From assembly GCF_030686945.1 (NCBI RefSeq), contig NW_027122708.1, positions 5,930,248-5,994,247 of the forward strand: a stretch of DNA of 64,000 nt. Direction: 5' to 3'. Shown one piece after another: positions 403-64,000 of the stretch. The translations under genes were made by a program, and so were the position numbers. The notes beneath the pieces are model-generated. The model ran no database searches, was not told where the DNA came from, and saw nothing but the letters and a program-made list of their open reading frames with translations. Source of the DNA: Centruroides vittatus. Its lineage: Eukaryota. The stretch's first letter is position 1; each line of letters begins with the position of its first letter.

Positions 403-2817
403 TGGAAAAAAGTATGATAACTTTTTTATTTTTCGACTCCGGTCCAAAAGTAGGGTATCGTTTAACTCGTCTCCGTCCCCTCAGTTCAGAAATATACTCA
501 AAGTCCCAAAATTCCATAGGTGGTAATCTATAGTATCCCCAATCATTTGTGTCCAGCTAAATTAAAGCGGTGTTATTAGCAGCCACCACAGCCAACATAA
601 TGCATTGCTGACTACCGTGCGAATCAAGTGGGAAAACGACAGATGACATAGGACAGACGAATAAAGTCGATCTATATTTACCCGACCTCAGCCAAAACAG
701 GCCTGAAAACGCAATAATTACTCGGCGTAGTTTCTCTATAAAGATGCAAATTAATTCATATTATAGTAATGTGTGTCCACTTTTCACTTTTACAATTAAA
801 TTTTGAATATTTATTGTACCGGTACAATTGAACTTTATTACACACTCACTAGAAAAAATAAAGATCATCAAACCTCCATACAAAACATTAATTATTTGAA
901 ATAAAATGAATAAATAAATAGTAGGCTGGATAATAATGATTACGAACTATATTTTATAAATACGTCAATAAAAATGAAGTTTTTCACGTAAAAAATATTT
1001 ACTACACCAATGGAAACTGGCGACGTATTCCACAAAAGAAATATCTTTATGGATATCTTTCCACCGATATTACCCCAAATCAAATGCACAGGGTAAATAC
1101 AATTGCACACGAGATACGTTCATAAAGTCGAAAGAATTAAAGGAGCTGTTCATAAATTACGTCCGCATTTTTCTTGAAATTTTACTCTCCCTTCCCCTCT
1201 TATGCCAGTTTGTCCGAGTTTCTGTAACCCTCCCTCTTCGGATGTCCGACAAAACTCGAACCCCCTTTAAACCTTTATCACTTTATAAATGACGATATTA
1301 TAAGTAGAAACAAAACGTAAAAAGAAATTCTGAAATAAATATAAAATGCATGAACTGTATAAAATTTAATGAAATAAACGGACGTCCACTGAAGATCGAT
1401 CCCTCTTCTCCCCTTGTCCGACTTTGTCTGACCTGTCCTAATCCCCAGTGTGGACGTCATGGACAGACCCAAAGGAATTACTGGCGAGTCGGCCATAAAG
1501 TACTAATTCTACTCGGCGCCCGCACAAAATGTTGATGACGTTTCAAACGAAATTCACGAAAGAAAAGAGGAAAGAGTTACTTTACATCGCAAAAAAAAAA
1601 AATTGTTTCTAAATTTATCCACGTGTATTAAAAAATGAAATGATAGAAATAAATGCCTACGGTAAGCAATGAAAGAAAAATATTTCGGATGAGAATGCAC
1701 CAGCCACATTTTAAGATGTTGATGCAATTTTACACTAACTTTCTTTAAAATAATATCCCCGAAGAGAACAGGCTGTTTCCTAGAAATAGTACAAGCCCAG
1801 GTAGTGTTGCCACCTTTACAAAATCGCTGACCCGGACGGTAGGTCAGGTTTGTTCAAACAGAAGTTCCTGATGCATGCGCAATGTCATTTTACAGTGCGA
1901 AGAATAACGTGCATGCCGGTTCTAAATCAGTTACAGTTAGGGACTAGGGACTTGCGTAGGAGTAACGTATGTAACCTAAATTAAGAAAGAAAGAACAGAT
2001 AATTTAGCTCCGCAGAAGACGTGTACGGACATACAAGCAAGAAATTATAAAAGAAAAAAAAAAGGTCGAGAGACAGGTTGCGAGTCACACGTCCGCGTAA
2101 ACAGAGTAACATGGCGGAATGGCAGATGAGTTTCAGTGAGTGTGAAGTCTTTCGCTGTTCAAATAGTGTAAATTTATAAAAAATATTTGCAAGAACTTTG
2201 TTTCATCGTAATTTCACAATTTCTACGAAATTCCCGGACAAAATTAATAGTTCACCCGGACAGTGAGTCAATTCCCGGACTGTCGTGTGAAAATCGTACG
2301 GGTGGTAACACTAAGCCCAGGACAACCCATGGGGAAGGAAGAGCAAGCTCTATCATTTCACCTCGTTCCAAAAAGAGGTTAATATCAAAACTTTCAATGG
2401 AAGCGAATCAGATATTAAGCTGATTAGAACAGACACTTTATTTGACAAAGTTTATAGGATTGTTACAAGGCGCCTGACTTTTGAATCAACCCGACAATTG
2501 GAAATCACTTTTCATCGATCATAGCCATAAAGAAGGAAGCAACGTCGATCACTTCCAAAATTTTCGGAACTCACTCCAACGAACTTATTATCACTGGTGT
2601 CGTCCGGTAATAATTTAAAAAAAGAAATTTATTGATTTTATGGAGTGTAATTTTCTATCACCAATGCATCATGATTATAAATTTCGTCAATTTATTTAAA
2701 AAAGTTATTTATGCCCTTATACATAATACTTGTTTTACTAAAAGTATAATGAAACGATGCCGTTTGATTTTCGATAACACTATGCGTCGCGTTTGTATAC
2801 AAGGTCTATAATACAAG

Positions 2818-7256: not shown

Positions 7257-8372
7257 ATTAGAACTTTTCTAAACGAAGGGTCCTTTCGTACTACTTCGTT
7301 TCAATTTTTCTCTAGATAGAAACCAACCTGGCTTACACCGGTTTGAACTCAGATCATGGAAACTTTTATAAGTCGAACAGACTTCCTATTATTGCTCTTG
7401 AGCAATAGAGGTAATTTAATCCAACATCGAGGTCACAAACATGTTTGTCAATTTGAGCTTTCAAAACATATTACGCTGTTATCCCTAAAGTAACTTATTT
7501 AAATTTCAAAAATTTTGGGTATTAAAATAATACTATCTTTAATTATCTAAAAGTGTTTTTCTTTCTGCCGCCCCAGCAAAACATATTCTTAATTTACTAA
7601 ATTTTCTTATGTAAAGTTTTATAGGGTGTTCTTGTCTAAAAGAGACATTTTAGCCTTCTTACTAAAAAGTGAAGTTTAAAATCAATAGTTAAGAAAGAAA
7701 TTTTCTAGTTTACCCTTTCATTCCAGTCTTAAATTACAAGACTAATTATTATGCTACCTTTGCACAGTCAAAATACCGCGGCCATTTATTTATACATCGA
7801 GCAGGGCTCATTTTTAATCATTTCAAAAAAATATGTTTTTGGTAAACAGACCAAAAATTTTAGACGAGTTACTTAACTTTTAATTGCTTTCTTAATTATA
7901 GATTAATTTTCTACTTATTTTAACATTATTACTATCATTAAATTATTCCATGGAAACTTTAATTAATTATTAGTTTATAAAACTAAAAATAACTTAATGA
8001 TAAAATTGAAGACAATCTTATTCCTCTAATAACAAATAATTATTTTTTAAACTTACATCTAATAAAGCTTGTCCTTTATTAGATAAAAATTTTCCAATCT
8101 TTGATGCTTATCTTAAAGAACCAGATATCAAATTAGGCGTTTAGCTTTTTACTTCAATAAATCAATTTACAATTACTTTAACACGTAAAAAATATTAATT
8201 TATAGCTCATAACTTTTCGGGAAAATTAAATCCTTTAATTAATTATTAAACCCTGATACAAAAGGTACGATATTCTCCTTTTTATATATTAAAAATACCC
8301 TTACAGTTAAGTTTTCTTCAATTTCAAACTATTACTAAAAAATGACTCCCTTCTTAATAATTTTCTAAAATA
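7257..8372 (-). rRNA. rrnL: Mitochondrial large-subunit (16S) rRNA, NUMT copy
   Basis: The 3'-domain motifs ccggtttgaactcagatcatg (7336-7356) and acgctgttatccctaaagtaa (7468-7488) are present as reverse complement. The 12S 3' end at 8441 fixes the upper bound. At about 1.1 kb it is shorter than a typical insect 16S. Confidence 0.75.
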
Positions 8373-13375: not shown

Positions 13376-14692
13376 AAAGATATTTTTTATTAGCTAACAT
13401 ATATAAGGCACAAATGGCAACTGCAGAAGTGCAATTGCTTTGAGTGCTATTTTTAATAATCCTTGAAAATAATTTAATATGTTTTTTTTTTTTATTTTCC
13501 CTTAAAACTTGAAAAGAAACTTGCTATTAATTAAAACTAAAATTTCAATTCAATCAAAGAAATTATAACTTAAATAATTGTTAATCAGATTACAAATTAT
13601 CTATCTCATTATATTAAAATATTAATTTGATTAATATATTTTAAACACCTGATAATCATATAAACGCATCAGATTTAATTTGTATGCTTGCATTTATAAA
13701 TAACTCAGAGAAAAGAAATATATGTATATATATATATATATTTTTAACTATTAACTGAAATTTAAAATATTACTGTTTGGCACAAGCTTTGTTTTAAATA
13801 ATGGCCTATGCACATATTATATAAATATTAGTAGTACACAGGAACAATAAACTTAATTACAATAAAACTAATGTTCTTTACTACAAATGTAGTATATAAG
13901 TGAGGACTCTTAAAATATTAATTTAAAGAAAAAAATAAATGAAAATTAATTGGAAACTTAAAGTTAAGGTATTAGTAGTTTAGCATTACATGTATTGTTA
14001 TAAAAAGTATTTTACATTGCTGTACAAATCCTATGATTAATTTTAAATGCAAGTCAATAAATTTGAAATGAATTTAATTCCAAATCAAAATTCCTAATAG
14101 TATTTAAAACTTTTAACAAGAAAGAACTTATAATATGACAAATTAAATTGCCATATTACAATTGCTTATAACATAAATCAACAAATAAATTACGTTTACA
14201 CCGTTTCCTAGAGGACGGACCAAAGAAGTTTATCTTAAGAAAATAAGCATATACAATAGCTCAATTAAAAATTTTATCTAAATTCAATTTTTTTTACAAA
14301 TAAACCTATGAGTGCTGCCTTGCCAAATGAAATATATTGCTTTGATGTTAACTTTTTTAGAATTTTTGTTTAATTTTTATAATGTTAGAATATTTAAGTA
14401 CATAGATATTTTTAAAAAATTAATTAAAATACTCTCTCTTTAGAATATAAATTACAATTTATATTCAAATTATCATCATCAACAACAACAACAAAAGAAA
14501 ACTTTCAATATCATTATTATTTTACTTTGTCTTATAAAAAAAACTTTAGCAAACTTAAATCTGAAAATACAGATTAAAAAAAATTGATTTGGTATTAATA
14601 AATAGTAATTAAAACTGACTTTATTAAATCAATTATGATGAAGAGATTTCTGTTTTGTTAAATTATTATTAAATGCCAAAAATAAATCTCTC

Positions 14693-14773
14693 TTAAATAG
14701 GTTTTGTAAAATTTGCTGGAAAAAGTCCTTTCTCTCCAGATGCTTCTTTGTAACCCATTAACCAACCTTCTTC
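14693..14773 (-). CDS. Terminal coding exon encoding the second half of an SH3 domain plus the stop codon: EEGWLMGYKEASGEKGLFPANFTKPI*
   Basis: An ttttacag acceptor lies upstream. The SH3 signature G(W/Y)..G......G.FP.N(Y/F) is present. It ends in TAA. Confidence 0.7.
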   Translation of the reverse strand, partial: EEGWLMGYKEASGEKGLFPANFTKPI

Positions 14774-14883
14774 CTGTAAAAATGAAAATTATGAATATTT
14801 TAAAATTTCATCATTCTTTGTTTATCATCATACCATAATCAATAAAATATTTTAAAATTTAAAATTTAAAATTTTAATATTTA

Positions 14884-14985
14884 CCTGCTCTTCTGGATCA
14901 TTATATTCAATAACGGCTATTATTTCTCCCGCATCAAAAGATAATTCATCGGCATCTTCTGCAGTGTATTTATAGGTTGTCCTTA
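14884..14985 (-). CDS. Coding exon encoding the SH3 domain N-terminal half: VRTTYKYTAEDADELSFDAGEIIAVIEYNDPEEQ. Phase 0 at both ends.
   Basis: A ttattag acceptor and a cag|gtaaat donor are present. The ALYDY..ELSF..GDII.V pattern of SH3 domains is conserved. It joins in frame to the exon at 14693-14773. Confidence 0.7.
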
Positions 14986-15090
14986 CCTAATAAAATGATA
15001 TAAATTAATAAAAACTTGATTGTTGCCTATTAATATCATAAATCTGCATAAATACACAATTAAATCATGCAAAATGGGTGGGCACACTTG

Positions 15091-15167
15091 TTTTATGTTA
15101 TTGTTTAGAAGAAAATAAAAATATATTTAATATATTTTTATTTTCTTCTAAACAATAACATAAAACA
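15091..15167. repeat. Perfect AT-rich palindrome of about 77 bp: ttttatgttattgtttagaagaaaataaaaatatattta | reverse complement
   Basis: Seen directly. Confidence 0.7.
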
Positions 15168-16366
15168 ATAAACAATTTATCAAAATATATTAAATATATT
15201 TTGATGAATTTATCATAGCCTCAACATTTTTAGTAAATAATTCATTTATTTAAATATCTCTGATAAATATTTATAGAAATTTTGCCAACTGACGTCATTT
15301 GTTAAACATACAGTTCATATGTAAGGAACTGAGTCCGAGAGTTATTTTTATTTTATTATTATTTTTCGTTTTATTATATTTTGTTTGGGACTTATGTTTA
15401 TTTAGGACGAAGGTTCCCCACCATTCTCTTGTTAGTAACGAAAAAAGAAGAAAAAAACAACTCAAGAAAAAATAAGCACCGTAGGAAAAATCTCGCGCAT
15501 TTGCGCTGCCCAGCAGAAGTAAACGGTCCGCAGAAAAAAAAAATGGAGGGGGTCCCCACACTCACTAGTAAGGAAATACTTACTAAACCATCTTAACATC
15601 CCAGAAAATTATGATAAATACTTTGTAAATGGTTTATAAGCTTTGTCGGAAACTTAAAGCTGCCAGAAAAGAAAATTAATGTTAGCAACTAAGTATGTAA
15701 ATAAGGGGAGTAACCCAGCTGAAGTGTGACGTCACCTCACAGTATAAAACCCGTACGTTAACCGAAGGAGGGGGAGGTGAATTCCAAATCGAGGCGATAT
15801 CCAGAGCGAGGTGAATTCGAAAGTGAGGAGATATTCTGATAGAAGTCCAGATTGATAATTGGATGATCTAAGGTGTTAAAGAGGAAATCGATTGACGATA
15901 TCGAAAGGATTGAGGAAATAGGTTCTTCGTATAGTGAGGTAACGGATAGACGTTTAATTAGTAAGAGATTTTGTTCATAGTTTCTAAGTATTTGATTTGT
16001 CGAATTTTCAAAGGGGAATTAATATTAAGTTAAGCTAAGTAGCTGAGTTTATTGTCGGGTTGACTTGTTGATTTCGTTAATAAATTTTGTTTGGATTATA
16101 GACATTTGTATGTAGTAAATTCTAGTTACTAATTAAATATATTTGAACTTTTACTTTGGCTTGATATTTATCGTTATTATTACTAATTTTTCGGTGCACG
16201 CTTAAAAGCCCAGGCCTGGCAAACTAATCTCGAATCCGCGTAAGTACCCGTTAGGTTAACGGAAGTTTTACCGACTGGAATTAGTGTCGGTTTCCTAAGA
16301 AACTAAAAATAGTACTTTACACATATACAAACATAATTTGGGACTCTATACATACGTGATATGTGG

Positions 16367-16421
16367 TGCCATTTTACAGTGACTGAAAATCAAATGGGAT
16401 TTTCAGTCACTGTAAAATGGC
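16367..16421. repeat. Hairpin palindrome tgccattttacagtgactgaaaatc-aaatggg-gattttcagtcactgtaaaatggca
   Basis: Seen directly. Arms are 24 bp. Confidence 0.7.
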
Positions 16422-17004
16422 ATCATTTCATTATAATTTTAGCAAAACAAGTATATACAAGCACAAACAACAGAAAATTTGTAACTTTTAGCCTTTTCTG
16501 TAAATCTAAAAGAAACTAATGAACAATATTTATCCATTGACCCAGGCAACTTTGTTGTATGTTGACCAAAACCCATTCCTTGTTTTCAAGACCAAGTTAG
16601 CCTAAGTGCAACCAGCACCATTTTCTGGGTGCTGATCTGAAATTGAATCATAGAGTTTGAAGCTCTTTGCACAATGTATGATAACCTTTTTTTTATAGCT
16701 TATGTCTCCTTTTTCATAGTCTGTGGGCACAACTGGTCATGTGATGTTGATTGAGGTGGTGACTTCCAGACAGCATGTGTATGACCTAGATGTTGTAACT
16801 ACCATTTGAACCTTTTTTCCCAAGAATGTTTTTGTTTTATTTGATTGCTGATGAATTTCTCTGACTAGCTAACATATTAAATTAAATTTCTGATAAATTA
16901 ATTTTAAAAATGATTATAGTCTGATTCTATGTAAAAAGTTTAATCTTTGTAACAAAATTTTAAAAATATAACAATTGTAAAGAGTGGTATGTCTGTGATA
17001 AAAC

Positions 17005-17030
17005 AAAAAAAAAAAAAAAAAAAAAAAAAA
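17005..17030 (+). repeat. Poly(A) tract of about 26 nt inside the SH3-gene intron. It may be the tail of a retroposed insert.
   Basis: Seen directly. Confidence 0.85.
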
Positions 17031-17467
17031 CAGATCAATTCTAGATGTGAAATATCACAATTAAAAAATCCTTACTAAACGCTTAGAAGTAAATGGATTA
17101 ACCATTCAGTTAAGCATTTTTGAGTTTCTGGACATCTAAAAGTTTACATTAATTCTACATAATCAATGTAATCTCCACAGAAGTATCATATAGACAGTTT
17201 ATTATAGGTCACCAATAAAACAGTGCACAAAATCTTGATTTTTAGCCAAACCTTCATAACTTGAAACGTTTTAACTCAAAGTTTGAATTTTTTTCCACAG
17301 CCAATTTGAGTTATCCAGGTCTCAATGTAATAATAATTTTTTGTATTTTTAATGGAGTCTCTCTTGTATCATTGTGTCTGAGTGTAGTAATCTTGAGTGA
17401 AATGACTTTACCTATTATATTCAAAAAATAAATAATATACAGAGCAATACTATAGATTATTACTTAC

Positions 17468-17600
17468 CCTATATAAAACACCAGATGGCAAATCTGTTGT
17501 GGTTGCATCTACAGGAATATCAAATAATTCTTCAATTTTTTTTTGCTTCTGAAACAACTGTTTCTGTTTTTGATGGTTCATTACAATTATTCCTAGTTTG
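17468..17600 (-). CDS. Candidate upstream exon of the SH3 gene: KLGIIVMNHQKQKQLFQKQKKIEELFDIPVDATTTDLPSGVLYR. It has an agg|gtaagt donor and an attttag acceptor.
   Basis: The open frame is bounded by consensus splice signals and is phase-compatible with the exon at 14884-14985. It is a low-complexity linker, so confidence is weaker. Confidence 0.4.
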
Positions 17601-17937: not shown

Positions 17938-18495
17938 TGTATAATGTAAATATATAAATAAGTTCAATGGAATAATTATACTTGTGTTTAATGATGCTAA
18001 AGCAACAAATGCAAAACTGTATAAAAATTTCTTTAACAGGTTTAAATGAAATTTACAGGTAATTAATCATAATAATGCATGAAAGAAGGAAGAGTTCTGT
18101 TGAATATTTAACAAGTTATGTAAATTATGCAATTAATATTGTGATGAAACATCAGACACCTTATATCACTGAAAAATGTTTATTAAACAAAACACTAATG
18201 TTTTCAACCTAATAGAATAGGCCATTTTCAAGTGTAACTACTGAATTCAAATGTATTTTAAAAATTTAACATTCTAACAACAGAACGTCCAAATATTTTT
18301 ACATTTAAATTTAAGACAAAAATATCAGATACATTAACAAATAAATAATAAAATAAACTATATTAAATAAACTAAAACAACTATGATATAAATAATATAA
18401 TAAAATAGATAAAATAAAATAAAATACATAAAATTCATCTAAATGTAAGAGCAGGTGCAGACTAAGAGTTTTTATATTTTAACTTTTCTTCTATG

Positions 18496-19951
18496 TATGA
18501 GGCGTGTCCGGGAAGTAAGTACCGTTTTGGAAAAACTCGCATAAAAAATCTTTTTTCAAAACAAAATTTATTTTTACATGAAAGAGCATGTCGGAAACTA
18601 TCTTTCTACACAGTTACCACCATTGTTCAGACATTTGTCATATCGGGAAACCAATTTGTCTATACCCTCTTCAAAGAAAGATGCCACCAGTGAAGACAGC
18701 CACTGCTGAACATTGGTTGTTGCGTCGTCATCGCTGGCAAAGCGCCTCCCTCCAAAATCACGCTTCAAGTTCAAGAACAAATGGTAGTCTGCAGGTGTGA
18801 GGTCGGGGCTGTATGGCGGGTGATCAAACTGCTCCCAACCGAATTGTTGAATCATGTTTTGGGTGACACCAGCAGTATGGGGACGTGCGTTGTCATGAAG
18901 CAACACAATGCCTTTACTGGGACTTCCACGCCTTTTGTTTTGAATTGCATGGCGAGGTTTTCGCAATGTTTCACAGTATCGTTCTGCATTGATGGTTTCA
19001 CCTCTGGGAAGGAACTCAACAAGCAGAATGCCCTGTCTGTCCCAGAATACAGTATGGGAAATGTATGGATTAGTAGAAAATGTAGATGGATGAAATGGAT
19101 TAGTGGGAAATGTAGGTTTAGTAGCCGGTAAGTCATAAGACAGGTACGACATAATTAGGACGATGGGGGACGGCTGTCCCAGAATACAGTGCACATGATT
19201 TTTCGTGCTGACAATGTTGTTTTGAATTTGTGTTTTGTGGGGAACCATGAGTGCCTCCACTCCATTGACTGTTGTTTTGATTCTGGAGTGACATGACAAA
19301 CCCAAGTTTCATCACCGGTAACAATTTTGTTTAGGAAATCATTACCCTCTTCACTGTATCGGATAAGAAATGCCAAAGCACTTCCAAGTCGCTTCGTTCT
19401 GTGGACATCCGTAAGCATTTTGGAGACTCAATGGGAACACAATTTACGATAATTTAAGTGATTTGTGACAATCTCATGCAAAACAGTTTTTGAAATTTGT
19501 GGAAACTCATCACAAAGCAATCTTATTGTGAACCGTCTGTTTTCACGAATTTTCTCATTCACTTTTGCAACCAAACCATCATTGACAACAGAAGGCCGCC
19601 CACTCCATGCTTCGTCATGAACATTGTCCATCATTGAATTGTCAAACCCACTTTCTCACCATTCCATCACTCATTACATTTTCACCATAAATCTCTACAA
19701 GTTGACGATGAATTTCAACTGGCTTAACATTCTTTGCATTCAAAAACCATATTACAGAACGCACTTCACAGTCGACGGGATCGGCAATCGTCTTAAATAT
19801 TTTGAACGCTCACTAACATGTGAAAAAACAACACAATCTTTCATGGCGTCACTGGACTGACAATCAACCAGAAACACATATGCGCAGGCGCTGAACTGCG
19901 ATACTACTGCTGCGGTGGCAGTAGAACAAAACGATACTTACTTTCTGGACA
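18496..19951 (-). mobile_element. Mariner-like element of about 1.46 kb with 26-bp terminal inverted repeats tatgaggc(g/a)tgtcc(g/a)g(g/a)aagtaagta
   Basis: The terminal inverted repeats at 18496-18521 and 19926-19951 are reverse complements. The internal transposase ORFs carry mariner signatures. Confidence 0.8.
18598..19634 (-). pseudogene. Mariner transposase, frameshifted across three ORFs. N-terminal helix-turn-helix SGRPSVVNDGLVAKVNEKIRENRRFTIRLL; DD34D catalytic-domain motifs HDNARPHTA and HPPYSPDLTPADYHLF.
   Basis: Six-frame ORFs 19428-19634, 19155-19418 and 18598-19305. Signature mariner motifs are present. Several frameshifts make it non-functional. Confidence 0.8.
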
Positions 19952-21204
19952 TGCCTCATAGAATTTCCATGCAGAAGCTAGTTATTTATATCGTCGTTGT
20001 TTTAGTTTATTTAATATATTTTATTTTATTATTTATTTGTTAATTTACCTAATATTTTCGTTTTAAATTTAAATGTAAAAATATTCGGATGTTCCATCGT
20101 TAGAATGTTAAATTTTTAAATACGTTCGAATTCGGTTACACCTGAAGATGGCCTATTTTATTAGGTTGAAAACATTAGTGTTTTGTTTAATAAACATTTC
20201 TCAGTGATAGAAGGTGTTTGATGTTTCATTAAGTGTTTAAAAAGGCTGAGTTTGATATTTGGTTAGTAATTAATATCCAAAACTGATATGCAAAAATTTA
20301 ATAATAAAGCACCTTCATTAGGGCATATAAGAGCTTCAAACAATAATGCAAACATAACAACTCAGCATGCTACAAATAAGGTCATCAATGAGCTTTTGTA
20401 GCATTAATTACCATTCCTGCAAAACAATATATCCAAGCTTTTGGGGTTGCATTAAGATGCACTAAGACTAGCAAAACCTCTTTCTTAAATTTCCAAAAGA
20501 ATTCAATGAGATTTAATCAGATAATCTTATTGGTCAATCAAGCTGCTATCAATTCATGCTAGTTTGATTTATACCAATTGACAATAATGCCAGTTTTAAA
20601 TTCTCCCTAAAAAAAAATCTCAAAATAAATTTTTCCACAATGTGTAAAAATGTTTTGAAAATGCATTTAGCATTTTCAAAACCATTTTCCTGATGGTAGT
20701 GCTTCATTTTAATACTATTAATAATGAGTCTGTGCAGTCTTAGTAACCTGAAGTGTTAGGGAAAAGTCGCCTAAGTCGTATCAGTGCTTAAATCGTACCT
20801 CAATGATTTCAACAGTACTTTATTCACCATACAAATGGCAACAGTATATAATTATATGGCTCGGCTATGTACTTATGCACATAGACAATGCACATCTCCA
20901 TTTCAAAGAATTAAGACTGTTTTTGGTAAACAAATTCATTTATAGTTGTTTGAGTGTAATTTTCATCTGGTGTGTGGAAGCTCCTAAGGTAAGAAAACAC
21001 TAGTTAAATACATTTTGCTTTTTTAGTACAAGTTATATATCTATTAGTGATTTGTTTGCCTCTTGCAGTTTTGTGAAAGATTTTTTCAAAATAGTTTTGG
21101 GGCTTTATGAACTGACATGCACGCTGTGTCTTATGTTGTACCCCCTTAGAATCTACAGACACTATCGCCAAGCAGCAATTTTGGCATTATATGTTGCAAC
21201 CCAC

Positions 21205-36500: not shown

Positions 36501-36814
36501 ACCAAAGTAGGCTTCTGTAATGAGATAAGAAGTAGCATATAATTGTTGAATTTTTTTATGTCAATTATTTTACCAAGGTTCTTTTTTATAAGGATACATA
36601 TACCTCCACTTGGACGGCCTGGACCTGTAGGTTTTTGTGCTTGAATCGATTCCACTATAAAGTTATTAAAAAATTTTGTTTTATAATACAAATTCGAAGT
36701 AATCCAAGTTTCAGTAATTGCTAAAATATCCGGATCGTATTTAACACAAAAATTATTTATTAGTGACGTTTTATTTTTTATTCCTTGGCCATTCCAGTTA
36801 GCAATGGAAACCAT
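33533..36814 (-). CDS. LINE ORF2 polyprotein of 1093 aa. N-terminal apurinic/apyrimidinic endonuclease (DILAITETW), reverse transcriptase (FADDLVVVA box) and C-terminal Cys motif CFLCNSDDSTPYHLILKC.
   Basis: Uninterrupted ORF starting with ATG. The domain order and motifs are those of LINE ORF2. Confidence 0.85.
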   Translation of the reverse strand: MVSIANWNGQGIKNKTSLINNFCVKYDPDILAITETWITSNLYYKTKFFNNFIVESIQAQKPTGPGRPSGGICILIKKNLGKIIDIKKFNNYMLLLISLQKPTLVNKTNNLITLLIAYILPDDLSTLKNMFKTLESWSHISPLILVVGDFNARIGELIDSKYKGANFNISNKRLSKDKQTNRLGKNFIELLTEHRLFLLNGRIQQDIPAEHTCLTNTGASTIDFTICSELFLDCCVEFQTTNFDISDHFPTIAKFRLFPFENSDYIYNNNFKIKYKLASYESEIGNRFKNMLEVTNNNCEEVYKIMMNIMNDYIISNKDNKYAQNKNKKIWYDSDCYKEKRRKQQDLKIYRQNPNKENLINYKNSKRIYNNLIKTKKKNYFCRIESNLINNSNNSKIFWNTIRKFRPKANLGDINICIRFETWKKFYQSFIIKNLKVPMERNINYYDDYLNADLTMNELDEVIQKTKNNTTPGDDNIPTKFLKMLPTESKIKLLKIFNAMYSTLSYPESWNSIIMTMIYKKGDQMAPENYRPIALLSTLRKCFTSILAKKFQNWIKINELEAEFQFAYTKNKGTEFAIFTLLMIIQIYLVKKHRKVYAAFIDIKKAFDSVYVPFLQQKLKESGASSQFTGTISILFQNYKIKIKHGKNILPPLTHSRGILQGDPLSPHLFNFYLKDIDHLFSEVNDGILIGNKAFHYILFADDLVVVAPTKISLQRKINQLNSHFKSKYLAVNPSKTKIIIFRNNSKISVNETKIYHENILLQTVNEINYLGINFDWNLTFKSHISKLNNKVNQAIDNLLFLCSRLKTSDLRIHMKLYNSIINPMIFYASPIWSLDYLYKLERFHIYYLRRLFQLERTIPGYALRHETNRIWSFPFILKRIIKFYYRLKFNSDNNLIALYHENIKQSKLQKNKQLWHNKLKTIFNSFGVSELLFQDNIQDWKTGYSLLLNSAMAQSINKDQFSLHSSKYHPWYLDIFKIPSVQSYMLYSVNLNVKRFIAQLRLNKNSLYVNNTYISLSTKCFLCNSDDSTPYHLILKCPKLNDIREHYDITRTYKCNSLIELLKNFNKMGKKDLYKIYNYFCKIIDIYKNKTN

Positions 36815-36868
36815 TTGATTATTCTTTATGACTTTGTTATGTTGCGTATATTTTTGCTTAACATGATA

Positions 36869-38524: not shown

Positions 38525-38718
38525 TTACTTTTGAACTGAATGTTGAGAAAGAGGTGATTCGTGTTTTCGAACTGCATAAACTCCTTTTTGATTTTCTATT
38601 GCCAACTGATCCATTAAATCACTGAGTTGAGTATACATTTTGAAATTTCCAGAATGAAAATCCACTTCTGCTGAGAATAAAGTTTGTAGATTTGACACAA
38701 AAAATGGTATTCGGCTAA
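38525..38718 (-). CDS. Candidate 3'-terminal coding exon of an unknown host gene: ...RIPFFVSNLQTLFSAEVDFHSGNFKMYTQLSDLMDQLAIENQKGVYAVRKHESPLSQHSVQK*
   Basis: A polypyrimidine tract plus AG acceptor at about 38719, an open frame ending in TAA, and no transposable-element similarity. Confidence 0.25.
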
Positions 38719-48443: not shown

Positions 48444-49942
48444 ATTCCACTTCTTCACGTTCCTGTGTGTGCATGTGCTTTGTTTCTGATTGCAGTAAAG
48501 TGAAAATGATGATTGCATGTTATTTCATAGACATTCCATTGTGTCAATGTAAAAGAAATTTTCTGCAAAAAATACAAAATTAATATTCCAAGAGAATTCA
48601 AATGTTTTGCAAGCTTAATCAGGCCATATTATCTGCAACTGACTAAAAAAGATGCTATAATTGATTGGTCAATTGAGGCATCATTTTTGGCCAGGACTGT
48701 TTTATGTAAACACTACATGTTTGACTATCATCATTATTATATTATTTTGACAATGACAAAAATTAATTTATTCATAAATGTCAATATAATTTATATTCTT
48801 AGAAATACCTTTCATATAAAGCAGGTAATTCTTCATGCAATTCATTGTTTAGAACTTCATACAGTTGCTTTGCTGTATCTAATTCTTCTTTTGCCTGATT
48901 AGTTAAAACATGCTATTTCAATTTTCAATGAAATAATAACTAAAAATGAAAATTATTTTAAAATGTAATATCACGTTTAAATTTATTTTCAAAGTAACAG
49001 ACCTTCATTATTATATGTTAAAGCTGAAAATTTTAGAAAATCAGCAACTGAAATAAAGTTTCTGCAGCCAAAATATTGAAAAAATTGAGCAAGAGAAGTA
49101 TACAAAAGAAAGATGAATGCCTAAAACAGAAAAGATAGAAATTAAGGAAGTAGCAATTAAATGTAAAAAGTGAAATATTAATAAGCAATAAGCTTTAATA
49201 AAATAAAGATTTTGAAAGCATTTATTTCTAAAACAAATAAAATGAAAAAAATGTACTTCAAAACTTTTAATATTGTCATCTCAATTTTTATTGTTTCTTA
49301 TTTACTTTAGATTTTGTAATATAAAATAATTTTTAAAAATTAAAGATAATAATAATAATAAATTAATTTTTTAGTTAAAATATTAAAATATAAAGTATGT
49401 TAATTATTTAGCTAGTACATAAAAATGGCTTTATAGTCAACTTGCATTAATATGAATTCCTAGGGAAATAGTAATTGGTTCGCTTTATTGAAAATTTGTA
49501 TAAACAATTTTCAGGGTCAAGGTCATATAATTTACAGAGTTAAGGCTTGAGAGGCAATCAAAATATAAAATATAATACAGTATTTTAAATTAATTTATAA
49601 AAAAAAGTTAAATAAAATTAAATTTATTGACAAAAACAAATTCTAAATGATTTTTCAAATCAAACAAAATGAAGAGGAGGTGGTATTTGTTGTTAAGTGT
49701 GGAGCAGTATTTCAGAGTGGTTAAACAAAAGAAAGCTAAATGAAATTTGTAATTGCTTTCCTGTTGTAGATTGTTTAAAAAAGTAGAAAATATTTCTGGC
49801 ATCAAAAGAGTAAAAATGGAGCCAAATTTGGTGCAAAGTAGCCAAATCTGGCATTACCATATGCACCTCCAATGTGTAAATTAGCATGTATTTGCATGGA
49901 ACCACATCCATTTAAAGTAATGGGCATCCTTAAACTTTAACC

Positions 49943-52030: not shown

Positions 52031-55000
52031 AACAAAGCAATTGCCATTGATTGTTTTGTTCTTGTGTTTTGTTTGTTTTCTGCATCTATTTTTGTGTGTG
52101 CCAGTGTGCCTAATTTCCATTAGGCACACTGGCATAATTTTGCACAATGCTGTTTTTATTTTTGACCCTTAGGCCAAAATTTTGTTAGGCATGCTCAGTT
52201 GCATCAGAGAGCATGGACATTGTCACTTTAATACAAGAGTTCCCAATCTTTATCATGCATTGACCCATTTAAAATAATTTCTTTTTCTTCGACTCCCTTC
52301 AATATTATATTATATATATGCCATAGCCTATTACATAATTTTTAAAAGACATTTTCCTGCATTTATTTAGGAGCAAAATATATGTAATATTCTTAATATT
52401 TTAAAATATTTTTTTTATATTTTCAAAGTTTTAGCAATCTCCTCAAACTTTCATTGACCCCTAATACTGCATTCACATACAATCTACGACTCACTTTAAT
52501 CTCGATTTACCCACAATCTCGATTGTAACTGTGCCAGTCAAACGTTGAGCTGTTCGCACAAGTGGTCTGCTTGAGAAGAACCTGGCTATTACATGCAATG
52601 ATAAAACTGACATAACTATGCAATAAGTCACGAACACCAACAAACAAAATGGAAGTTTTGGTTAGAAATAAATACTTTTTCTTGCCATATATCTAAGAAT
52701 AGCCAGATCTCGTCATCTCTCCAAATATCTTTTTTATTTCTCTGTTGATATCCCGACACTTGTTCTGCAGCCATCTTGTTTTTTCTTGCGCAGGTGTGAT
52801 TGTGGGAACTCTCTTATGACTGGATCTAGTTTCAAAAACTCTCATGTTGATTGCAATTGAACCTTGTTTAAGCCAAGATTTAAATGGTCAATAGAGGTCG
52901 CACCATAGCACAGTTGCCAATCTTATCACAATCTAGATTGAAATGCTCAGTGCAAACAGGGTATAAGGGTTCAATACTGACCTCATTGAGAAACTCTGCT
53001 TTAATAGGCCTACCTCTATACATCAAAAATGAAGTCATGGTCTCCTATTTTTTTTACATTTAAATGGACCGTCATTACACTTTTGGGTTCCTCATCGCAA
53101 TTAATGGAAAATGGCAAAGTTTTATCAAAATCGACCCATGACATTTTGAGAACAAACTCAATTCTATAAACACATATAAGACATGCTAGCGACCATAGAA
53201 TGTCACGTGACAAAGTTGCATGCACTTGTGCTACAACCTTATATCTCAAAAACAAAGTTATGGATCTCCACTTTTTATTACATATTTGGATTCCTAGTTG
53301 CAATTAGTGAAAGATGGCAAAGTTTAATCAAAATTGTTTGAACAGATTTTGAGAATGAACACAATACTCTAAGCCACATAGAAGAGGCTTTGCTACTGCT
53401 CTCCCTGAAAAATACATAAAAGTAACTTATATAATTTTAAGTAAAAAAATATTTAGATTGGAAAAAAAAAATTTAAATAATGAACTGCTAGGTTATTCTT
53501 CTGTTCATATTGTTTTACAATAACGAGATTTTATGAAAAAATCAACAAATTAAATTTCACCATTTCATAAAACAAATTAATTTAGTAAGCTTAACTAAAA
53601 TGAACTAATTCTAAGATGTATTAATTTATAATTTAAAACATAGATTAATTACTTAACATTTTTATCCTTTAAACAATTCTGATATTTAAAAATTTTTTAA
53701 TTTTAATTTTTGTGAACTTATTTTAAATTTATCATCCTTTTTGTCAGATTAGGCATAACAACAATCCATACATTTGTGTAAAATAGATCATATCAAAAGA
53801 TTTTAGATATATAAGTATATATTAATAACTAATCATAATTACAAATTTTTATCTGCAAACATCACAATGAAAATTGTATATTAACTGTATTAATTTAAAT
53901 TACTGTATATTAAAAAGAATTATTATTATTAATAAAATGATGGGAAACAATTATTATTTTCAAATTTTGCATTCTGATTTTTAAATTTGTATCATGCAAT
54001 AAACTTAAAAAGAAAAACATTTATCAATTCTACTATGGCATATGTTTGTAGAGACAGAGAGAAAGAATTCTATACATTATATTACTCCTCAATATAAATT
54101 TAAAATTTTAATTTAATAATATTTAAATTTTCATTTTGTAGCAATTTTTAATTGTAGAAATTAATAATTTATTTTACTCAATCTTTATGATCTCATTCAA
54201 TAAACTTAACTAAAATTTGAATTTCATATTTAGCATTTATTTCCATTTTTAAAATGAACTGTTTTTGTGTTATTTTTAAACAAGAGTTGTAAATATTGAG
54301 CAAGATCTTGATTATCAAGATATAAATCAAGAGACATGACTATGATTAGGAATACAGATAATTAAGAATTTAAAAAAGTAATTAGTGTGAAATAATATGG
54401 AATGCAAAAGAGTAACCATTAAAAATGTTGTTAATAGCTATTTCTTTACATCAAAAAAGTTTCATGTGAAGGAATATTCAACACTACAAGATACTTAGAT
54501 GTAAACTCCTAAATTACATTATTATTATTATTATTAAATAAAAAGAATATTATAATATACCTTTGCAATTTTTAAATCATCTTTCCTTTTTGTATTCTGT
54601 TGTAATGAACCTAAATTATGTCTACAACCATCATAATCGACTAACTTTCTTTTCCGCTTAGCAATTTTCGTCTATTAAATAAAAATTATTTAAAATTAAT
54701 ATCAAGAATAATAATAAAAAATTTAAACAAATTCACAAATTAAAATATTACATCTATCTAATAAAATCATCAGAGAATTTCTTAATAATAATAATAATTA
54801 CAGTACATTTGAACATCCTTATTTGATTTGTCTGCCACTAATCATCCAATTTTGCAGCCAAATGAAGCTCAAAGATCCAAAGACAGAAAAGGATTATGAT
54901 TAAGATTGAGATTATGAAATAATGAAGTAAATCGATATCTCAACTGGACACTTACCAGAGGAAAAAAATGACAATTTCTTAATCCAAACAAAAACATCTG

Positions 55001-56640: not shown

Positions 56641-57609
56641 TGGTACTGTTATGCTTATATAAGAAAAGGCATGGTTTTTAAGTATAATGGAGTGATGTTC
56701 AGTGGTGCAAATAGCTCTGCACAGAGTAAGAAAATAAAGGTGTCAGAAAAGATCAATAGTATATGGCAAGACAGGTGAAACAGGTGGACTGATTATACAA
56801 ATATACACACCAATTGAAAACCTGTTATTAAGCAAATATACTTCCACAATTGCTGTAAATGAACAGGCTAAATTTGGATATAATGATTATAAATTAGAAA
56901 TGAATTTGGCATTACTTAATAAATTAAAATTATTGGCCAATAATTTTAATAAAGTTATTAGAAATGAATTTAGCATTAATATATCCAAATTTAGCCCGTT
57001 CATTTACAGAAATTGAAATTATTAGTTCAGTAAAAACATGCCAAAAAATGAAGGTAGAGTTTTATTTTTATGATAAATATTCTGGTTACTTCATAAATTT
57101 ACTGTAATAATTAAAAAACACTATTTAAAATTATTTTAAATTTTATTTTAGTAAATTTTTACCTACCTTCATATCAGGAAATTGATTCAAATAAGAATTC
57201 AATGGTGCTGCAACAGCTTCATTGATTTTTTGACAATAATCTTCCCAGAGTGTTTCTAATATCTGTATAAATTGTATATTAATTAAGTACAATTATTTTA
57301 CTATATTATTTATTTTAGTATTCAGAAAATTTATATATTTATTTAATTTTTCAATTTATTTTTATTCCAAAATCAAACTGACTTGCATCACACCATTGTA
57401 ATATATACACATTGTATATTTAGAAGCACAGATTTGTCTTTGAATTTTTCAGACACAGAACTAGATACAGTCAAATCTCAAACAGTGTGCACTAATGGGA
57501 ACATAAAGTCCATTGTTGGGAAGTCAGCTAAAAATGCATAGGTTGTATAAATTGAAGGAAAACTTAATTTATTATGATAAGCTTCTACATTCATGGAACA
57601 CCGGGGATG

Positions 57610-60700: not shown

Positions 60701-62754
60701 AGTTTCATCATTTTCATCTCTAACAATTCATTATTTAGGCCTATTTCTTCCTCCTCTTCTGAAAAATTACAGGATGAATAGGGCCTTAGCCCATCTGACC
60801 TTCCCTGAAATCTTATTGGTCTCCGATTTTGATGTGTACAAAATTTATGACCTAAGAACTGAAGGAACATCAGAAAACAGTTACTAATTAAATTGATTAG
60901 GTCCAGATGACCTGATTGACTGATATATGACGTCTCCCTGTTGAATGTTATGAATGTCTTAAAAGCTAACAACTGTATTTCTCACACCTGGGTTGGAGTT
61001 TTACAAAGGGGTTTGCAGACCAAAACATGGAACTGAACCCAACTTAAACACAGTCCAGGTGGCATGATTGATTTTAAGGCGATCAACAACACTTAAATGT
61101 TTTATTGTTTGTTAGGCCACATTTATGTTATAACCATTAGTTTTTCTTTGATAAGCCACAGCTTAACATCCCAGAAATATGGTAAGTGTTTCACATTAAA
61201 TTTGCTTGATTAAATGATAGAAATATGTAATATGTATTATTTTCTTTAAAATTATGTACTCTCCTGCAGAAAAGTTTACTCTTGTAAACTTTTACAACCC
61301 AGTACATAATTATTATTAATAATAGCATTAAAAATCCACAAAATAAAATCTATTAATTTATTTTTACAGTTTTCAAATAGTTTGGTTGAATTAGATTATT
61401 CCACATTTAAATATAGTACTTTTTCATGAATCTAGAAAGTTGGGTGTAGATCTTTTTGCAAATAAAACTGGAACATTAAACCATTGCATTGTTTTACTTT
61501 AGCACAGCAGTCACAAAGATTGCTGATTCTTGATACAGTCTAACCTCCAATAATGGCCACTTCTAAACAGCCATTTTTTCAGAAACTTTTATTTTTTCTT
61601 ATAAATTATACTTTTTCCTTCAAATTATATCTTTTTAAATTAATAACTTTTGAAGTTATAATTTTATAAAAGTGAAAAAGTACATATTTTAAATTAAAGT
61701 TCCATGCTCTCTATTCCCATCTTCAAATATCAATAGTAATTTTTCACTGCTAGTCTACTGTTTAAAACTAAGTTTCACAACTGTGCCACAAATTAAAAAT
61801 TGTTGAAAAAAACTGATTTTTATATCTATTAAATGCTTTAGTATATTATTTTCTAAAATACACTTAATTAATTATTAATTTTTATAACTGAACCAAATTG
61901 ATGCAGAAAAGAAACAAACCTTTTGTAAAACATAAAAATTATAACATTTTGTTTATGTAAGCTATAACTAAATTGATTACTAATTATATATACAATTAAA
62001 TACAGTTTTAAAAAGTCTTAACTTTAAAACTACAGTGTTTAAAATTATAAATAAATAATATATACTGTTTAACATTACTTGGCATTTAACTGGTATCTGA
62101 TCACTATTGATCCATTTATCTTCATAAACTTCACTGATTGTTTCCATTAAACTTTTACTAGCAACTTGCATGGCTAAATAAATTTAAATATATTATAATA
62201 CTTATAATTAAAAAGCAATATTATTATTATTTATAGTTTACAGTAACATAATTTCATGCAGATAACCCACAGATTATGCATGTTTAAAAGATAATATGAA
62301 AGAGTATTCAGATTGTGAACTGGGTGCAAAATTGTATGCTGATTTAAAATTACAATTACAAAATCACCAAACAGCTTTTCCTTTGTCTGAAATCACTTAC
62401 ATGCATTTTTAAAATGTGTAAAGAATCCTTTGTGCACTGCAAACATATTCATCTACCATCACAAATTTTTCAGAAACTACAAAATACATGCATACATACA
62501 TGTCATATTTAGTTCATTTCAATTCATTTTTTGTGTGTTAATCCAGACCTTAATTATTATTATTTTTATTATTTGAGACACCTATTCAAACTCATATGTT
62601 AACAGCTGATAAATTTTCAGTTAATTCTCCTCTGTATAATGCTATCATTGCACAGACTATTTAACTATTTAGAAACTGGTTGATGAGTTTATTGTATGTT
62701 AATTCATTGCATTTTTTATTGTTATAACCTTAATTTTGATAATTAAATTAATTA

Positions 62755-63861: not shown

Positions 63862-64000
63862 TATACTTAAAACAACAGCCTTAGCTTAACTGTGCAATAT
63901 TTCTCCTTGTTTACACAACAGCATTACTTTCTGCTTTAATACCAAGTTGAAACTAAATATGTCAGACATTTTACCAATATTTTTTTTACAATTATTTTTT

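What the first reader, a model, noticed from the sequence alone, without database searches (positions are those of the whole stretch)
14693..17600. Host gene with a C-terminal SH3 domain split by a phase-0 intron, with a repeat-laden 2.5 kb intron upstream
The exons at 14884-14985 and 14693-14773 encode a complete SH3 domain (VRTTYKYTAEDADELSFDAGEIIAVIEYNDPEEQ | EEGWLMGYKEASGEKGLFPANFTKPI*), resembling cortactin/Abp1-type C-terminal SH3s. A candidate preceding exon at 17468-17600 encodes a Q/K-rich linker. The intron between them carries a poly(A) tract, hairpins and a possible promoter-like CRE+TATA at 15728-15750. Further 5' exons lie beyond a mariner-in-foldback insertion. This is the only confidently host-coding region in the window.
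Basis: partly seen in the sequence, partly recalled or inferred. Interest (0 to 1): 0.5.

Follow-up and report, generated by a model that had tools for sequence, protein, structure and literature searches.

The report
3′ end of an amphiphysin gene
The flagged region is the last three exons of an ordinary arthropod amphiphysin (BIN1-like) gene, a membrane-bending BAR protein with a C-terminal SH3 domain, whose five other visible exons are spread over another 45 kb of transposon-filled introns; it is real but not unusual.

Summary
The first SH3 exon is 14885-14986, not 14884-14985. The last exon (14693-14773) and the upstream exon (17468-17600, whose first base completes a split codon) are as stated. 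The spliced product is a genuine SH3 (Pfam E 2e-13).

The SH3 is amphiphysin/BIN1-type (PDB E 2e-17), not cortactin/Abp1. PACSIN is next at 1e-9.

Five more minus-strand exons (62173-62079, 57262-57167, 54671-54561, 48894-48809, 38714-38529) encode residues 71-243 of an amphiphysin BAR domain (Drosophila 1URU, E 1.5e-55). All eight exons have GT-AG borders and join in one frame of 295 codons plus stop. The first ~70 residues lie beyond the window.

The two 3′ introns sit at the same phase-0 codon boundaries in spider and horseshoe-crab genomes. Codon-position identity (0.85/0.90/0.42) shows purifying selection.

The 2.5 kb intron contains two palindromes, a 26-A run and a GC-richer block carrying TGACGTCA and TATAAAA on the antisense strand. 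Its LTR-like ends are no better than chance.

Verdict: a known gene family with a conserved gene structure. Low interest.

The parts
14693..14773 (-). Last coding exon (81 nt including the TAA stop at 14693-14695). [quoted passage not shown]
   Evidence: Translation. Acceptor tttttacag|. The same exon boundary is found in Trichonephila and Tachypleus.
14774..14884 (-). 111-nt phase-0 intron. By my reading of the SH3 fold it falls in the n-Src loop, between …PEEQ and EEGW….
   Evidence: gtaaat…tttttacag. The position is conserved in a spider and a horseshoe crab. Mammalian BIN1 also places the second half of its SH3 in the last exon (PMC7710016).
14885..14986 (-). Exon (102 nt) encoding the first half of the SH3: VRTTYKYTAEDADELSFDAGEIIAVIEYNDPEEQ.
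   Evidence: frame test; Pfam SH3; BIN1 SH3 structures.
14987..17467 (-). 2,481-nt phase-0 intron with repeats and a GC-richer block.
   Evidence: Donor gtaagt at 17467, acceptor ttttattag at 14987. The intron position …LYR|VR.TYKY… is conserved in Trichonephila and Tachypleus.
17468..17600 (-). Linker exon (133 nt: 1 base of a split codon plus 44 codons). It ends in the conserved arthropod motif KIEELFDIPVDATTTDLPSGVLYR.
   Evidence: Gap-free alignment with arthropod amphiphysins and with BIN1 structures. Among the AG sites I checked by eye, only 17600 is phase-compatible with the donor at 38529.
38529..38714 (-). Last BAR-domain exon (186 nt): (S)RIPFFVSNLQTLFSAEVDFHSGNFKMYTQLSDLMDQLAIENQKGVYAVRKHESPLSQHSVQ(N).
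   Evidence: tblastn. Boundaries. The same split-codon start is found in Trichonephila.
48809..48894 (-). BAR exon (86 nt): AKEELDTAKQLYEVLNNELHEELPALYE(S).
54561..54671 (-). BAR exon (111 nt): [37 protein letters not shown].
57167..57262 (-). BAR exon (96 nt): ILETLWEDYCQKINEAVAAPLNSYLNQFPDMK.
62079..62173 (-). Most 5′ BAR exon visible in the window (95 nt, starting with 2 bases of a split codon): MQVASKSLMETISEVYEDKWINSDQIPVKCQ. The exons for the first ~70 residues are not in 62174-64000.
   Evidence: It aligns from residue 71 of Drosophila amphiphysin 1URU.
14620..14625 (-). Candidate AATAAA polyadenylation signal, 68 nt after the stop codon. This is weak evidence because the region is 17-25% GC.
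   Evidence: Read from the sequence.
15320..16321 (+). GC-richer block in the intron with TGTAAGG…CTTTACA ends and CATA/CATA flanks. On the + strand it carries TGACGTCA (15727-15734), TATAAAA (15743-15749) and a 17-nt tandem repeat of 3.2 copies (15774-15828). It may be a solo LTR or another transposon remnant, but this is not established.
   Evidence: In the control, end-plus-flank signatures like this occur about 0.4 times per 2.5 kb in this window. No second copy exists in the window.
15088..15168 (.). Perfect AT-rich palindrome (40-nt arms, 1-nt spacer), with a smaller one at 15174-15210.
16364..16425 (.). Palindrome (28-nt arms, 96% complementary, 6-nt loop).
17005..17030 (+). Run of 26 A on the + strand (T on the gene strand). 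No target-site duplication was found.
18144..20229 (-). Mariner-type transposase remnant (ORF 18598-19305) lying between inverted arms that span ~235-250 nt on each side (matched segments of 95 and 139 nt). It sits in the 20.9 kb intron just upstream of the linker exon.
   Evidence: Pfam Transposase_1 E 2.5e-13. Inverted repeats 91-94% complementary.

Best explanation
The finding is the 3′ end of the single-copy-type arthropod orthologue of amphiphysin/BIN1, transcribed from the minus strand.

**Shown here.** Eight exons between 62173 and 14693 have canonical splice sites and join in one open frame. The product is residues ~71 to the end of an amphiphysin: the last two-thirds of a BAR domain, a short Q/K-rich linker ending in the arthropod motif EELFDIPVDATTTDLP, and a C-terminal SH3 with the acidic loop …DPEEQEEGW… typical of the family. 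The two 3′ introns, including the phase-0 intron inside the SH3, are inherited features of the gene. They are found at identical codon boundaries in a spider and a horseshoe crab.

**Inferred from the family.** The BAR domain dimerises into a curved, positively charged module that binds and tubulates membranes. The SH3 binds proline-rich partners and localises the protein. Known partners are dynamin and synaptojanin in vertebrates and Nedd4Lo in flies. In flies the gene organises muscle T-tubules and postsynaptic membranes rather than acting in endocytosis.

**The introns.** The large introns (up to 20.9 kb) have filled with transposons (mariner, a LINE, a fragment with an integrase-type domain). 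The repeats, the A-run and the CRE+TATA in the 2.5 kb intron are most simply intronic debris of that kind, with no demonstrated role.
For: **SH3.**
- Pfam SH3_9 E 1.8e-13.
- The best PDB matches are BIN1/amphiphysin-2 SH3 structures 5i22, 1bb9 and 1muz at E ~2e-17. The alignment starts in the upstream exon.

**Homologues.**
- 91 hits, mostly named amphiphysin or Myc box-dependent-interacting protein 1, from spiders, horseshoe crab, ticks, crustaceans and insects. They reach 75% identity over 85% of the query and align without gaps across both junctions.
- The closest named full-length relatives are Nymphon striatum BIN1 and Dermacentor silvarum amphiphysin-like.

**BAR exons and gene model.**
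- BAR exons were found by tblastn with full-length proteins, in order and on one strand.
- The assembled model is one frame of 295 codons plus stop, with every border ag|…|gt.
- Pfam BAR E 1.4e-26 plus SH3 on the model.
- Drosophila amphiphysin BAR 1URU E 1.5e-55 over residues 71-243 with a single 1-residue gap. All other PDB hits are AMPH, BIN1 or BIN2.

**Conservation.**
- Intron positions are identical in Trichonephila (L001) and Tachypleus (L002) for both 3′ introns. They are also identical in Trichonephila for the start of the last BAR exon.
- Codon-position identity is 0.85/0.90/0.42 against Trichonephila and 0.77/0.89/0.45 against Tachypleus over 84 codons.

**Function in the family.** PMC4791135 and PMC7710016.
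Against: - No transcript data are available, so the junctions are inferred from signals, phase, colinearity and conserved gene structure.
- The join 38529|17600 across 20.9 kb rests only on phase compatibility (a 1-in-3 prior) and the absence of detectable intervening exons. Many arthropod amphiphysins have a longer linker with a PYEEI[ED]F motif, and no such exon was found on the gene strand. Lineage-specific or alternative exons may therefore be missing from the model.
- In Trichonephila the corresponding two exons are not phase-compatible, by my reading of the and 49 outputs. That species probably has intermediate exons.
- The N-terminal ~70 residues (amphipathic helix and first BAR helix) are outside the window, so the completeness of the gene is unverified.
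- The organism is not identified.
Confidence: 0.95

Rival explanations
1. The three 3′ exons form a separate small SH3-only gene, with its own promoter in or after the 20.9 kb intron, independent of the upstream BAR exons.
For: The public Trichonephila annotation calls exactly such a 96-aa SH3-only product next to a separate BAR-containing product. Many database entries are SH3-only fragments. The 38529|17600 join is supported only by phase.
Against: Curated full-length arthropod proteins (Dermacentor XP_049524655, Macrobrachium XP_066983969, Nymphon KAG1676578) carry BAR and this SH3 in one chain. The exons are in order on one strand with compatible phases. The exon at 17600 begins at an acceptor with a split codon and has no in-frame ATG context that is conserved. 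The Trichonephila BAR product is fused to a Tc3-type transposase HTH domain, which points to an annotation artefact caused by a TE in the long intron.
Confidence: 0.03
2. The locus is a decaying, unprocessed pseudogene copy of amphiphysin, riddled with transposons.
For: The introns hold mariner, LINE and integrase-bearing transposon sequences. The 5′ end is not visible. The linker is unusually short and lacks the PYEEI[ED]F motif.
Against: All eight exons are free of stops and frameshifts, and all 14 splice sites are canonical. All TE sequences lie in introns. Third codon positions are far more diverged than first and second positions, and the BAR region matches 1URU with a single 1-residue gap. 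Recent inactivation cannot be excluded by these tests.
Confidence: 0.02
3. One reading: a cortactin- or Abp1/drebrin-like actin-binding adaptor with a C-terminal SH3.
For: Those proteins also end in an SH3 with a …GLFPANYV… C-terminus, which looks superficially similar to GLFPANFTKPI (my own knowledge of those families).
Against: Neither cortactin nor Abp1/drebrin-like is among the 60 best PDB matches, whereas BIN1/amphiphysin-2 leads by 8 orders of magnitude. The upstream exons encode a BAR domain. Every named homologue but one mislabelled entry is amphiphysin/BIN1 or an unnamed or hypothetical protein.
Confidence: 0.005

Closest known systems
Drosophila melanogaster Amphiphysin (dAmph; BAR structure PDB 1URU)
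   Same: The BAR region aligns to residues 71-243 at E 1.5e-55 with one 1-residue gap. Both have a C-terminal SH3. No clathrin/AP-2 binding motifs (LLDLD, PWDLW, FxDxF) are visible in the linker, read directly from the model. By homology, the expected role is in membrane tubulation and T-tubule/postsynaptic organisation (PMC4791135).
   Different: The SH3 and linker are closer to chelicerate and crustacean sequences (…TAEDADELSF…) than to the insect type (…NREDVDELSF…). The modelled linker is much shorter than in most arthropod proteins retrieved (about 60 residues against 100-300).
Chelicerate amphiphysin / BIN1-like genes (Nymphon striatum KAG1676578, Dermacentor silvarum XP_049524655, Trichonephila clavipes, Tachypleus tridentatus)
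   Same: These are the best full-length and C-terminal matches. The intron positions around and inside the SH3 are identical, and in the spider so is the start of the last BAR exon. The spider also has a long, TE-bearing intron between the BAR and SH3 parts.
   Different: Identity is only 56-61% in the BAR and 70-82% in the C-terminus, so the source species itself is not in the databases searched. The conserved linker motif PYEEI[ED]F was not found in the window.
Mammalian BIN1 (amphiphysin 2) and AMPH (amphiphysin 1)
   Same: Both have the N-BAR plus C-terminal SH3 architecture. The SH3 matches BIN1 structures at E 2e-17, including the acidic …NPEEQDEGWLMG… loop. [quoted passage not shown]
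   Different: The arthropod protein lacks the 8-residue insertion after KES/KEA seen in BIN1 (alignment gap). It also lacks the CLAP, Myc-binding and phosphoinositide-binding (exon 11) inserts of vertebrate isoforms. Codon-exact identity of the SH3 intron position with mammals was not tested.

Membership tests
Amphiphysin/BIN family (N-BAR + C-terminal SH3) | A BAR domain encoded upstream of the SH3 in the same reading frame. | tested here: met
   Pfam BAR PF03114 E 1.4e-26 (profile positions 76-228 of 234) plus SH3 on the eight-exon model. 1URU E 1.5e-55. The joining of the exons is inferred, not observed.
Amphiphysin/BIN family (N-BAR + C-terminal SH3) | An N-terminal amphipathic helix (H0) preceding the BAR (the 'N' of N-BAR). 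| not testable with these tools
   The first ~70 residues are not encoded in 62174-64000. No KHAGRAKE or LQNLGK peptides appear in any minus-strand frame. The 5′ exons lie outside the window.
Amphiphysin/BIN family (N-BAR + C-terminal SH3) | An SH3 of the amphiphysin subtype (long acidic n-Src loop …PEEQ[DE]EGWLMG…, C-terminal FP.NFT). | tested here: met
   BIN1/amphiphysin-2 SH3 structures are the four best PDB matches (E 2e-17 to 2e-16). PACSIN is next at 1e-9. The columns E80 G81 W82 L83 … F96 P97 A98 N99 F100 T101 are invariant in the arthropod alignment.
Amphiphysin/BIN family (N-BAR + C-terminal SH3) | Closer to amphiphysin than to other BAR-SH3 families (endophilin and others). | tested here: met
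   With the BAR part as query, the only PDB hits at E ≤ 1e-3 are amphiphysin, BIN1 and BIN2. The named nearest proteins are amphiphysin/BIN1.
Amphiphysin/BIN family (N-BAR + C-terminal SH3) | Orthologous gene structure (shared intron positions). | tested here: met
   …LYR|VR.TYKY… and …[ED]EQ|EEGW… are phase-0 introns in the window, in Trichonephila L001 and in Tachypleus L002. The split-codon start of the last BAR exon is shared with Trichonephila.
Amphiphysin/BIN family (N-BAR + C-terminal SH3) | Transcription and splicing as modelled; membrane tubulation; SH3-ligand binding. | not testable with these tools
   No transcriptome or experiment is available. Function is inferred from the family (PMC4791135, PMC7710016).
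Vertebrate neuronal amphiphysin-1 / BIN1 brain isoform subtype (CLAP-containing) | Clathrin- and AP-2-binding motifs (LLDLD, PWDLW, FxDxF/DPF) in the central region. | tested here: not met
   The modelled linker GVYAVRKHESPLSQHSVQNKLGIIVMNHQKQKQLFQKQKKIEELFDIPVDATTTDLPSG contains none of these motifs (read). The motif definitions are from my own knowledge. Undetected alternative exons could change this.
   The upstream exons encode BAR. Cortactin and drebrin-like are absent from the best 60 PDB matches.
Solo LTR of an LTR retrotransposon (for the 15320-16321 block) | TG…CA termini with short inverted ends, a 4-6 bp target-site duplication, an internal TATA and polyadenylation signal, and related copies elsewhere. 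| tested here: inconclusive
   The block has TGTAAGG…CTTTACA ends with CATA/CATA flanks, TATAAAA at 15743 and an AATAAA near 16080. Equivalent end-plus-flank signatures occur 10 times in the window, about 0.4 per 2.5 kb. No second copy exists in the window. The GC-rich composition continues past 16321 to about 16800.

The most novel reading that the evidence does not exclude
The GC-richer block in the 2.5 kb intron, with a CRE octamer 8 nt upstream of a TATAAAA on the antisense strand and a second CRE 430 nt away (the only two TGACGTCA sites in 64 kb), could be a transposon-derived promoter. It would drive an antisense or nested transcript across the SH3 exons of amphiphysin and so regulate inclusion of the SH3. 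Separately, this lineage may make an unusually short-linker amphiphysin that lacks the conserved PYEEI[ED]F motif.
Probability: 0.05. Interest if true: 0.3.

Novelty: already known. Interest (0 to 1): 0.08.

Why it matters
Its value is mainly for annotation. It shows that most of this 64 kb window (at least 14.7-62.2 kb) is one host gene, amphiphysin, with introns packed with transposons. The many mobile-element features elsewhere in the window should therefore be read as intronic insertions on that background.

It also shows how such genes get split in automatic annotation. The spider orthologue is annotated as two genes, one of them fused to a transposase domain. The intron inside the SH3 domain is an old, conserved feature shared across chelicerates, and mammals also have an intron within the BIN1 SH3. 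It is not a peculiarity of this locus. Nothing here challenges current knowledge.

Tried and rejected
1. This was resolved as a 1-nt shift and a split first codon.
P0045 was used instead.
3. A word-indexed search with the 85-aa BAR piece returned only one hit and did not reach the N-terminal BAR.
4. N-terminal exons in 62174-64000: none in any minus-strand frame.
5. Extra linker exons (PYEEI[ED]F motif, linker-only tblastn) on the gene strand of the window (14000-64000): nothing above noise.
6. Organism identification by exact look-up of the intact LINE ORF2: not on record. The source stays 'arthropod, chelicerate-like'.
7. Solo-LTR reading of 15320-16321: the ends and flanks looked right, but a control shows such signatures are common in this AT-rich DNA, and there is no second copy. 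Left as inconclusive.
8. The A-run as a retroposon tail: no target-site duplication.
9. A bacterial-type promoter/terminator scan of the intron found no enrichment (23 against 20.3 expected) and is not relevant to a eukaryote.
10. ORFs in the 2.5 kb intron: only short, low-complexity ORFs.
11. tRNA scan of the window: none.
12. The cortactin/Abp1 label was rejected.
Full report
**1. Checking the observation**

The other SH3 exon does not translate as written, because 14884-14985 gives stops. The coordinate is therefore a 1-nt slip and the peptide is right.

The proposed upstream exon 17468-17600 has the right borders, but it is 133 nt long. Its first base completes a codon begun in the previous exon. 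From 17599 it reads KLGIIVMNHQKQKQLFQKQKKIEELFDIPVDATTTDLPSGVLYR.

Each border is canonical (polypyrimidine-AG acceptor, GTAAGT or GTAAAT donor). Both introns, 14774-14884 (111 nt) and 14987-17467 (2,481 nt), are phase 0.

The signal is far above chance:
- Pfam SH3_9 E 1.8e-13.
- Solved SH3 structures E 2e-17.
- Database homologues down to E 8e-39.

**2. What the SH3 belongs to**

The four best PDB matches are all BIN1/amphiphysin-2 SH3 domains (5i22, 1bb9, 1muz, 1mv3; E 2e-17 to 2e-16). The next family, PACSIN, is eight orders of magnitude weaker. Cortactin and Abp1/drebrin-like do not appear among the 60 best matches.

The BIN1 alignment begins inside the upstream exon (DLPSGVLYR|VRTTYKY against DLPPGFMFK VQAQHDY). 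This is direct support for the 17468|14986 junction.

The protein search returned 91 hits. Most are named amphiphysin or Myc box-dependent-interacting protein 1. They come from spiders, horseshoe crab, ticks, shrimps, lobster and beetles, with up to 75% identity over 85% of the 104-aa query. They align without a gap across both junctions and share the arthropod linker motif EELYDIPVGATT..LP.GVLYRV.

**3. The rest of the gene**

Homologue fragments carrying a BAR tail (P0045, P0047, P0092) located two further minus-strand exons near 48.8 kb and 38.6 kb. Full-length amphiphysins came from the representative library (sequences). With them, tblastn located three more exons near 62.1, 57.2 and 54.6 kb, all in protein order.

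I read the borders and assembled the model by script. The eight exons are:

| Exon | Coordinates | Length |
|---|---|---|
| 1 (first visible) | 62173-62079 | 95 nt |
| 2 | 57262-57167 | 96 nt |
| 3 | 54671-54561 | 111 nt |
| 4 | 48894-48809 | 86 nt |
| 5 | 38714-38529 | 186 nt |
| 6 | 17600-17468 | 133 nt |
| 7 | 14986-14885 | 102 nt |
| 8 | 14773-14693 | 81 nt |

Every exon has an AG acceptor and every exon but the last a GT donor. The exons join into a single frame of 295 codons plus stop. The introns are 4,816, 2,495, 5,666, 10,094, 20,928, 2,481 and 111 nt.

Pfam finds BAR (E 1.4e-26, profile positions 76-228 of 234) followed by SH3. The BAR part matches the crystal structure of Drosophila amphiphysin (1URU) at E 1.5e-55 over residues 71-243 with a single 1-residue gap. 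The only other PDB hits are human BIN1, AMPH and BIN2.

The first ~70 residues (amphipathic helix and first BAR helix) are not encoded in 62174-64000. The 5′ end of the gene therefore lies outside the window.

The closest named full-length proteins are Nymphon striatum BIN1 and Dermacentor silvarum amphiphysin-like. The source is therefore an arthropod, probably a chelicerate. The species itself is not in the databases: identity is only 56-61% in the BAR, and the exact-ORF look-up failed.

**4. Independent support for the junctions**

No transcript data can be queried here, so I compared gene structures instead. In the Trichonephila clavipes locus (L001) and the Tachypleus tridentatus locus (L002), the homologous coding sequence is interrupted at exactly the same two codon boundaries, …LYR|VRATYKY… and …[ED]EQ|EEGW…. 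Both are phase 0 with GT-AG borders. In Trichonephila the last BAR exon also starts at the same split codon (ag|T CGG, giving S-R-I).

[quoted passage not shown] An intron inside this SH3 is therefore an old family trait. I did not test whether the mammalian position is identical to the codon.

Over 84 aligned codons, identity at codon positions 1/2/3 is:
- 0.85/0.90/0.42 against the spider.
- 0.77/0.89/0.45 against the horseshoe crab.

This is the signature of purifying selection on a coding sequence.

**5. Weak points of the model**

The join 38529|17600 across 20.9 kb rests on two things. The first is phase compatibility: …CAA AA|gt with ag|C AAA. The other AG sites I checked by eye inside the exon give incompatible phases. 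The second is the failure to find intervening exons.

Many arthropod amphiphysins have a 100-300-residue linker with a PYEEI[ED]F motif. No such exon is detectable on the gene strand. In Trichonephila the corresponding exons are not phase-compatible, by my reading, so that species probably has intermediate exons. The short linker modelled here may be real, or it may miss lineage-specific or alternative exons.

**6. The 2.5 kb intron**

It contains:
- A perfect 40-nt-arm AT-rich palindrome (15088-15168) and a 28-nt-arm palindrome (16364-16425).
- A 26-A run (17005-17030).
- AT-rich microsatellites and a 17-nt tandem repeat of 3.2 copies (15774-15828).
- A GC-richer stretch from about 15400 to 16800.

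The 'CRE+TATA' exists: TGACGTCA at 15727-15734 and TATAAAA at 15743-15749. The CRE-then-TATA order reads on the + strand, which is antisense to the gene. TGACGTCA occurs only twice in the 64 kb window, both times in this intron (15290 and 15727; 0.2 expected; 1 of 100 shuffles reaches 2).

I considered a solo LTR at 15320-16321, with TGTAAGG…CTTTACA ends, CATA/CATA flanks, and an internal TATA and AATAAA. A control found ten equivalent end-plus-flank signatures in the window, about 0.4 per 2.5 kb. There is no second copy in the window, and the composition does not change at 16321. The LTR reading stays unproven.

The A-run has no target-site duplication, and the intron has no meaningful ORF. 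The simplest reading is unclassified intronic repeat debris.

**7. How it most likely works**

This part is inferred from the family and was not tested here. The BAR domain forms a curved dimer that binds acidic membranes and stabilises tubules. The C-terminal SH3 binds proline-rich ligands and targets the protein.

In Drosophila, amphiphysin is not needed for synaptic-vesicle endocytosis. It organises muscle T-tubules and postsynaptic membranes. Its SH3 binds a PRPPPR motif in Nedd4Lo, and deleting the SH3 mislocalises the protein (PMC4791135). In mammals the BIN1 SH3 binds dynamin 2 and synaptojanin, and truncations of the SH3 cause centronuclear myopathy (PMC7710016).

The protein modelled here has the invertebrate layout. 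No clathrin or AP-2 motifs are visible in the linker, and it lacks the 8-residue insertion that BIN1 has after KES.

**8. Verdict**

The family assignment is wrong: it is amphiphysin/BIN1, not cortactin/Abp1. The gene is also far larger than the flagged region, covering at least 14693-62173.

It is an ordinary orthologue of a well-studied gene with a conserved exon-intron structure. Novelty: already known. Interest: low.

Noticed in passing
window 2284-2461 (-): Full-length match to U2 spliceosomal snRNA (Rfam RF00004, 63 bits against a gathering score of 46, model positions 1-192). It is a second host-type feature in the window, either a gene or a pseudogene copy.
   Followed up: no
window 7310-7642 and 7699-7859 (-): Two adjacent matches to the 3′ half of bacterial-type LSU rRNA (130.7 and 68 bits; model positions 1790-2647 compressed into about 550 nt). 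This looks like a fragment of mitochondrial 16S rRNA inserted in nuclear DNA (a NUMT) or an assembly chimera. It could be used to identify the species.
   Followed up: partly
window 42263-42796 (-), next to 43666-44136 (-): An intronless 177-aa ORF of the papain family (Pfam Peptidase_C1 E 5e-28). It matches mexicain and cathepsin K, and the catalytic CGACW motif is kept. It lies in the 10 kb amphiphysin intron directly downstream of a retrotransposon-like fragment: an rve integrase ORF, and a peptide that from memory resembles the region just before the RT of Ty1/copia elements (…NTWTLVSKPPKDKRVIDVKWIYRKK…). I could not tell whether it is a cathepsin retrocopy, a captured gene piece or a nested host exon. 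The region also has a strong strand composition skew (GC skew -0.30 and AT skew -0.26 at 42001-44000).
   Followed up: partly
window 33533-37885 (-): An apparently intact non-LTR retrotransposon. It has a 1,093-aa ORF with an AP-endonuclease and a reverse transcriptase (Pfam Exo_endo_phos and RVT_1), preceded by a 338-aa ORF with no Pfam match that is possibly ORF1. It is in the same orientation as amphiphysin, inside the 20.9 kb intron. It may be a recently active element.
   Followed up: no
window 18144-20229: A mariner-type transposase remnant (235-aa ORF, Transposase_1 and DDE_3) sits between inverted arms spanning ~235-250 nt on each side (matched segments of 95 and 139 nt, 91-94% complementary). 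It is either a mariner inserted in a foldback element or a long-TIR derivative.
   Followed up: partly
window 55722-56228 (+): A reverse-transcriptase ORF fragment (RVT_1, E 4e-15) in the 2.5 kb intron between the BAR exons at 57167 and 54671, antisense to the gene.
   Followed up: no
L001 1-12559 (Trichonephila clavipes BMAU01017768.1): The public annotation splits the spider amphiphysin gene in two. One is a 625-aa product combining BAR with Tc3-type transposase HTH domains, and the other is a separate 96-aa SH3-only product. This is probably an annotation artefact caused by a transposon in the long BAR-SH3 intron, which mirrors the layout in this window.
   Followed up: partly
window 15290-15297 and 15727-15734: The only two TGACGTCA octamers in the 64 kb window lie 437 nt apart in the same intron (0.2 expected). 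One is just outside and one inside the LTR-like block. Unexplained.
   Followed up: partly
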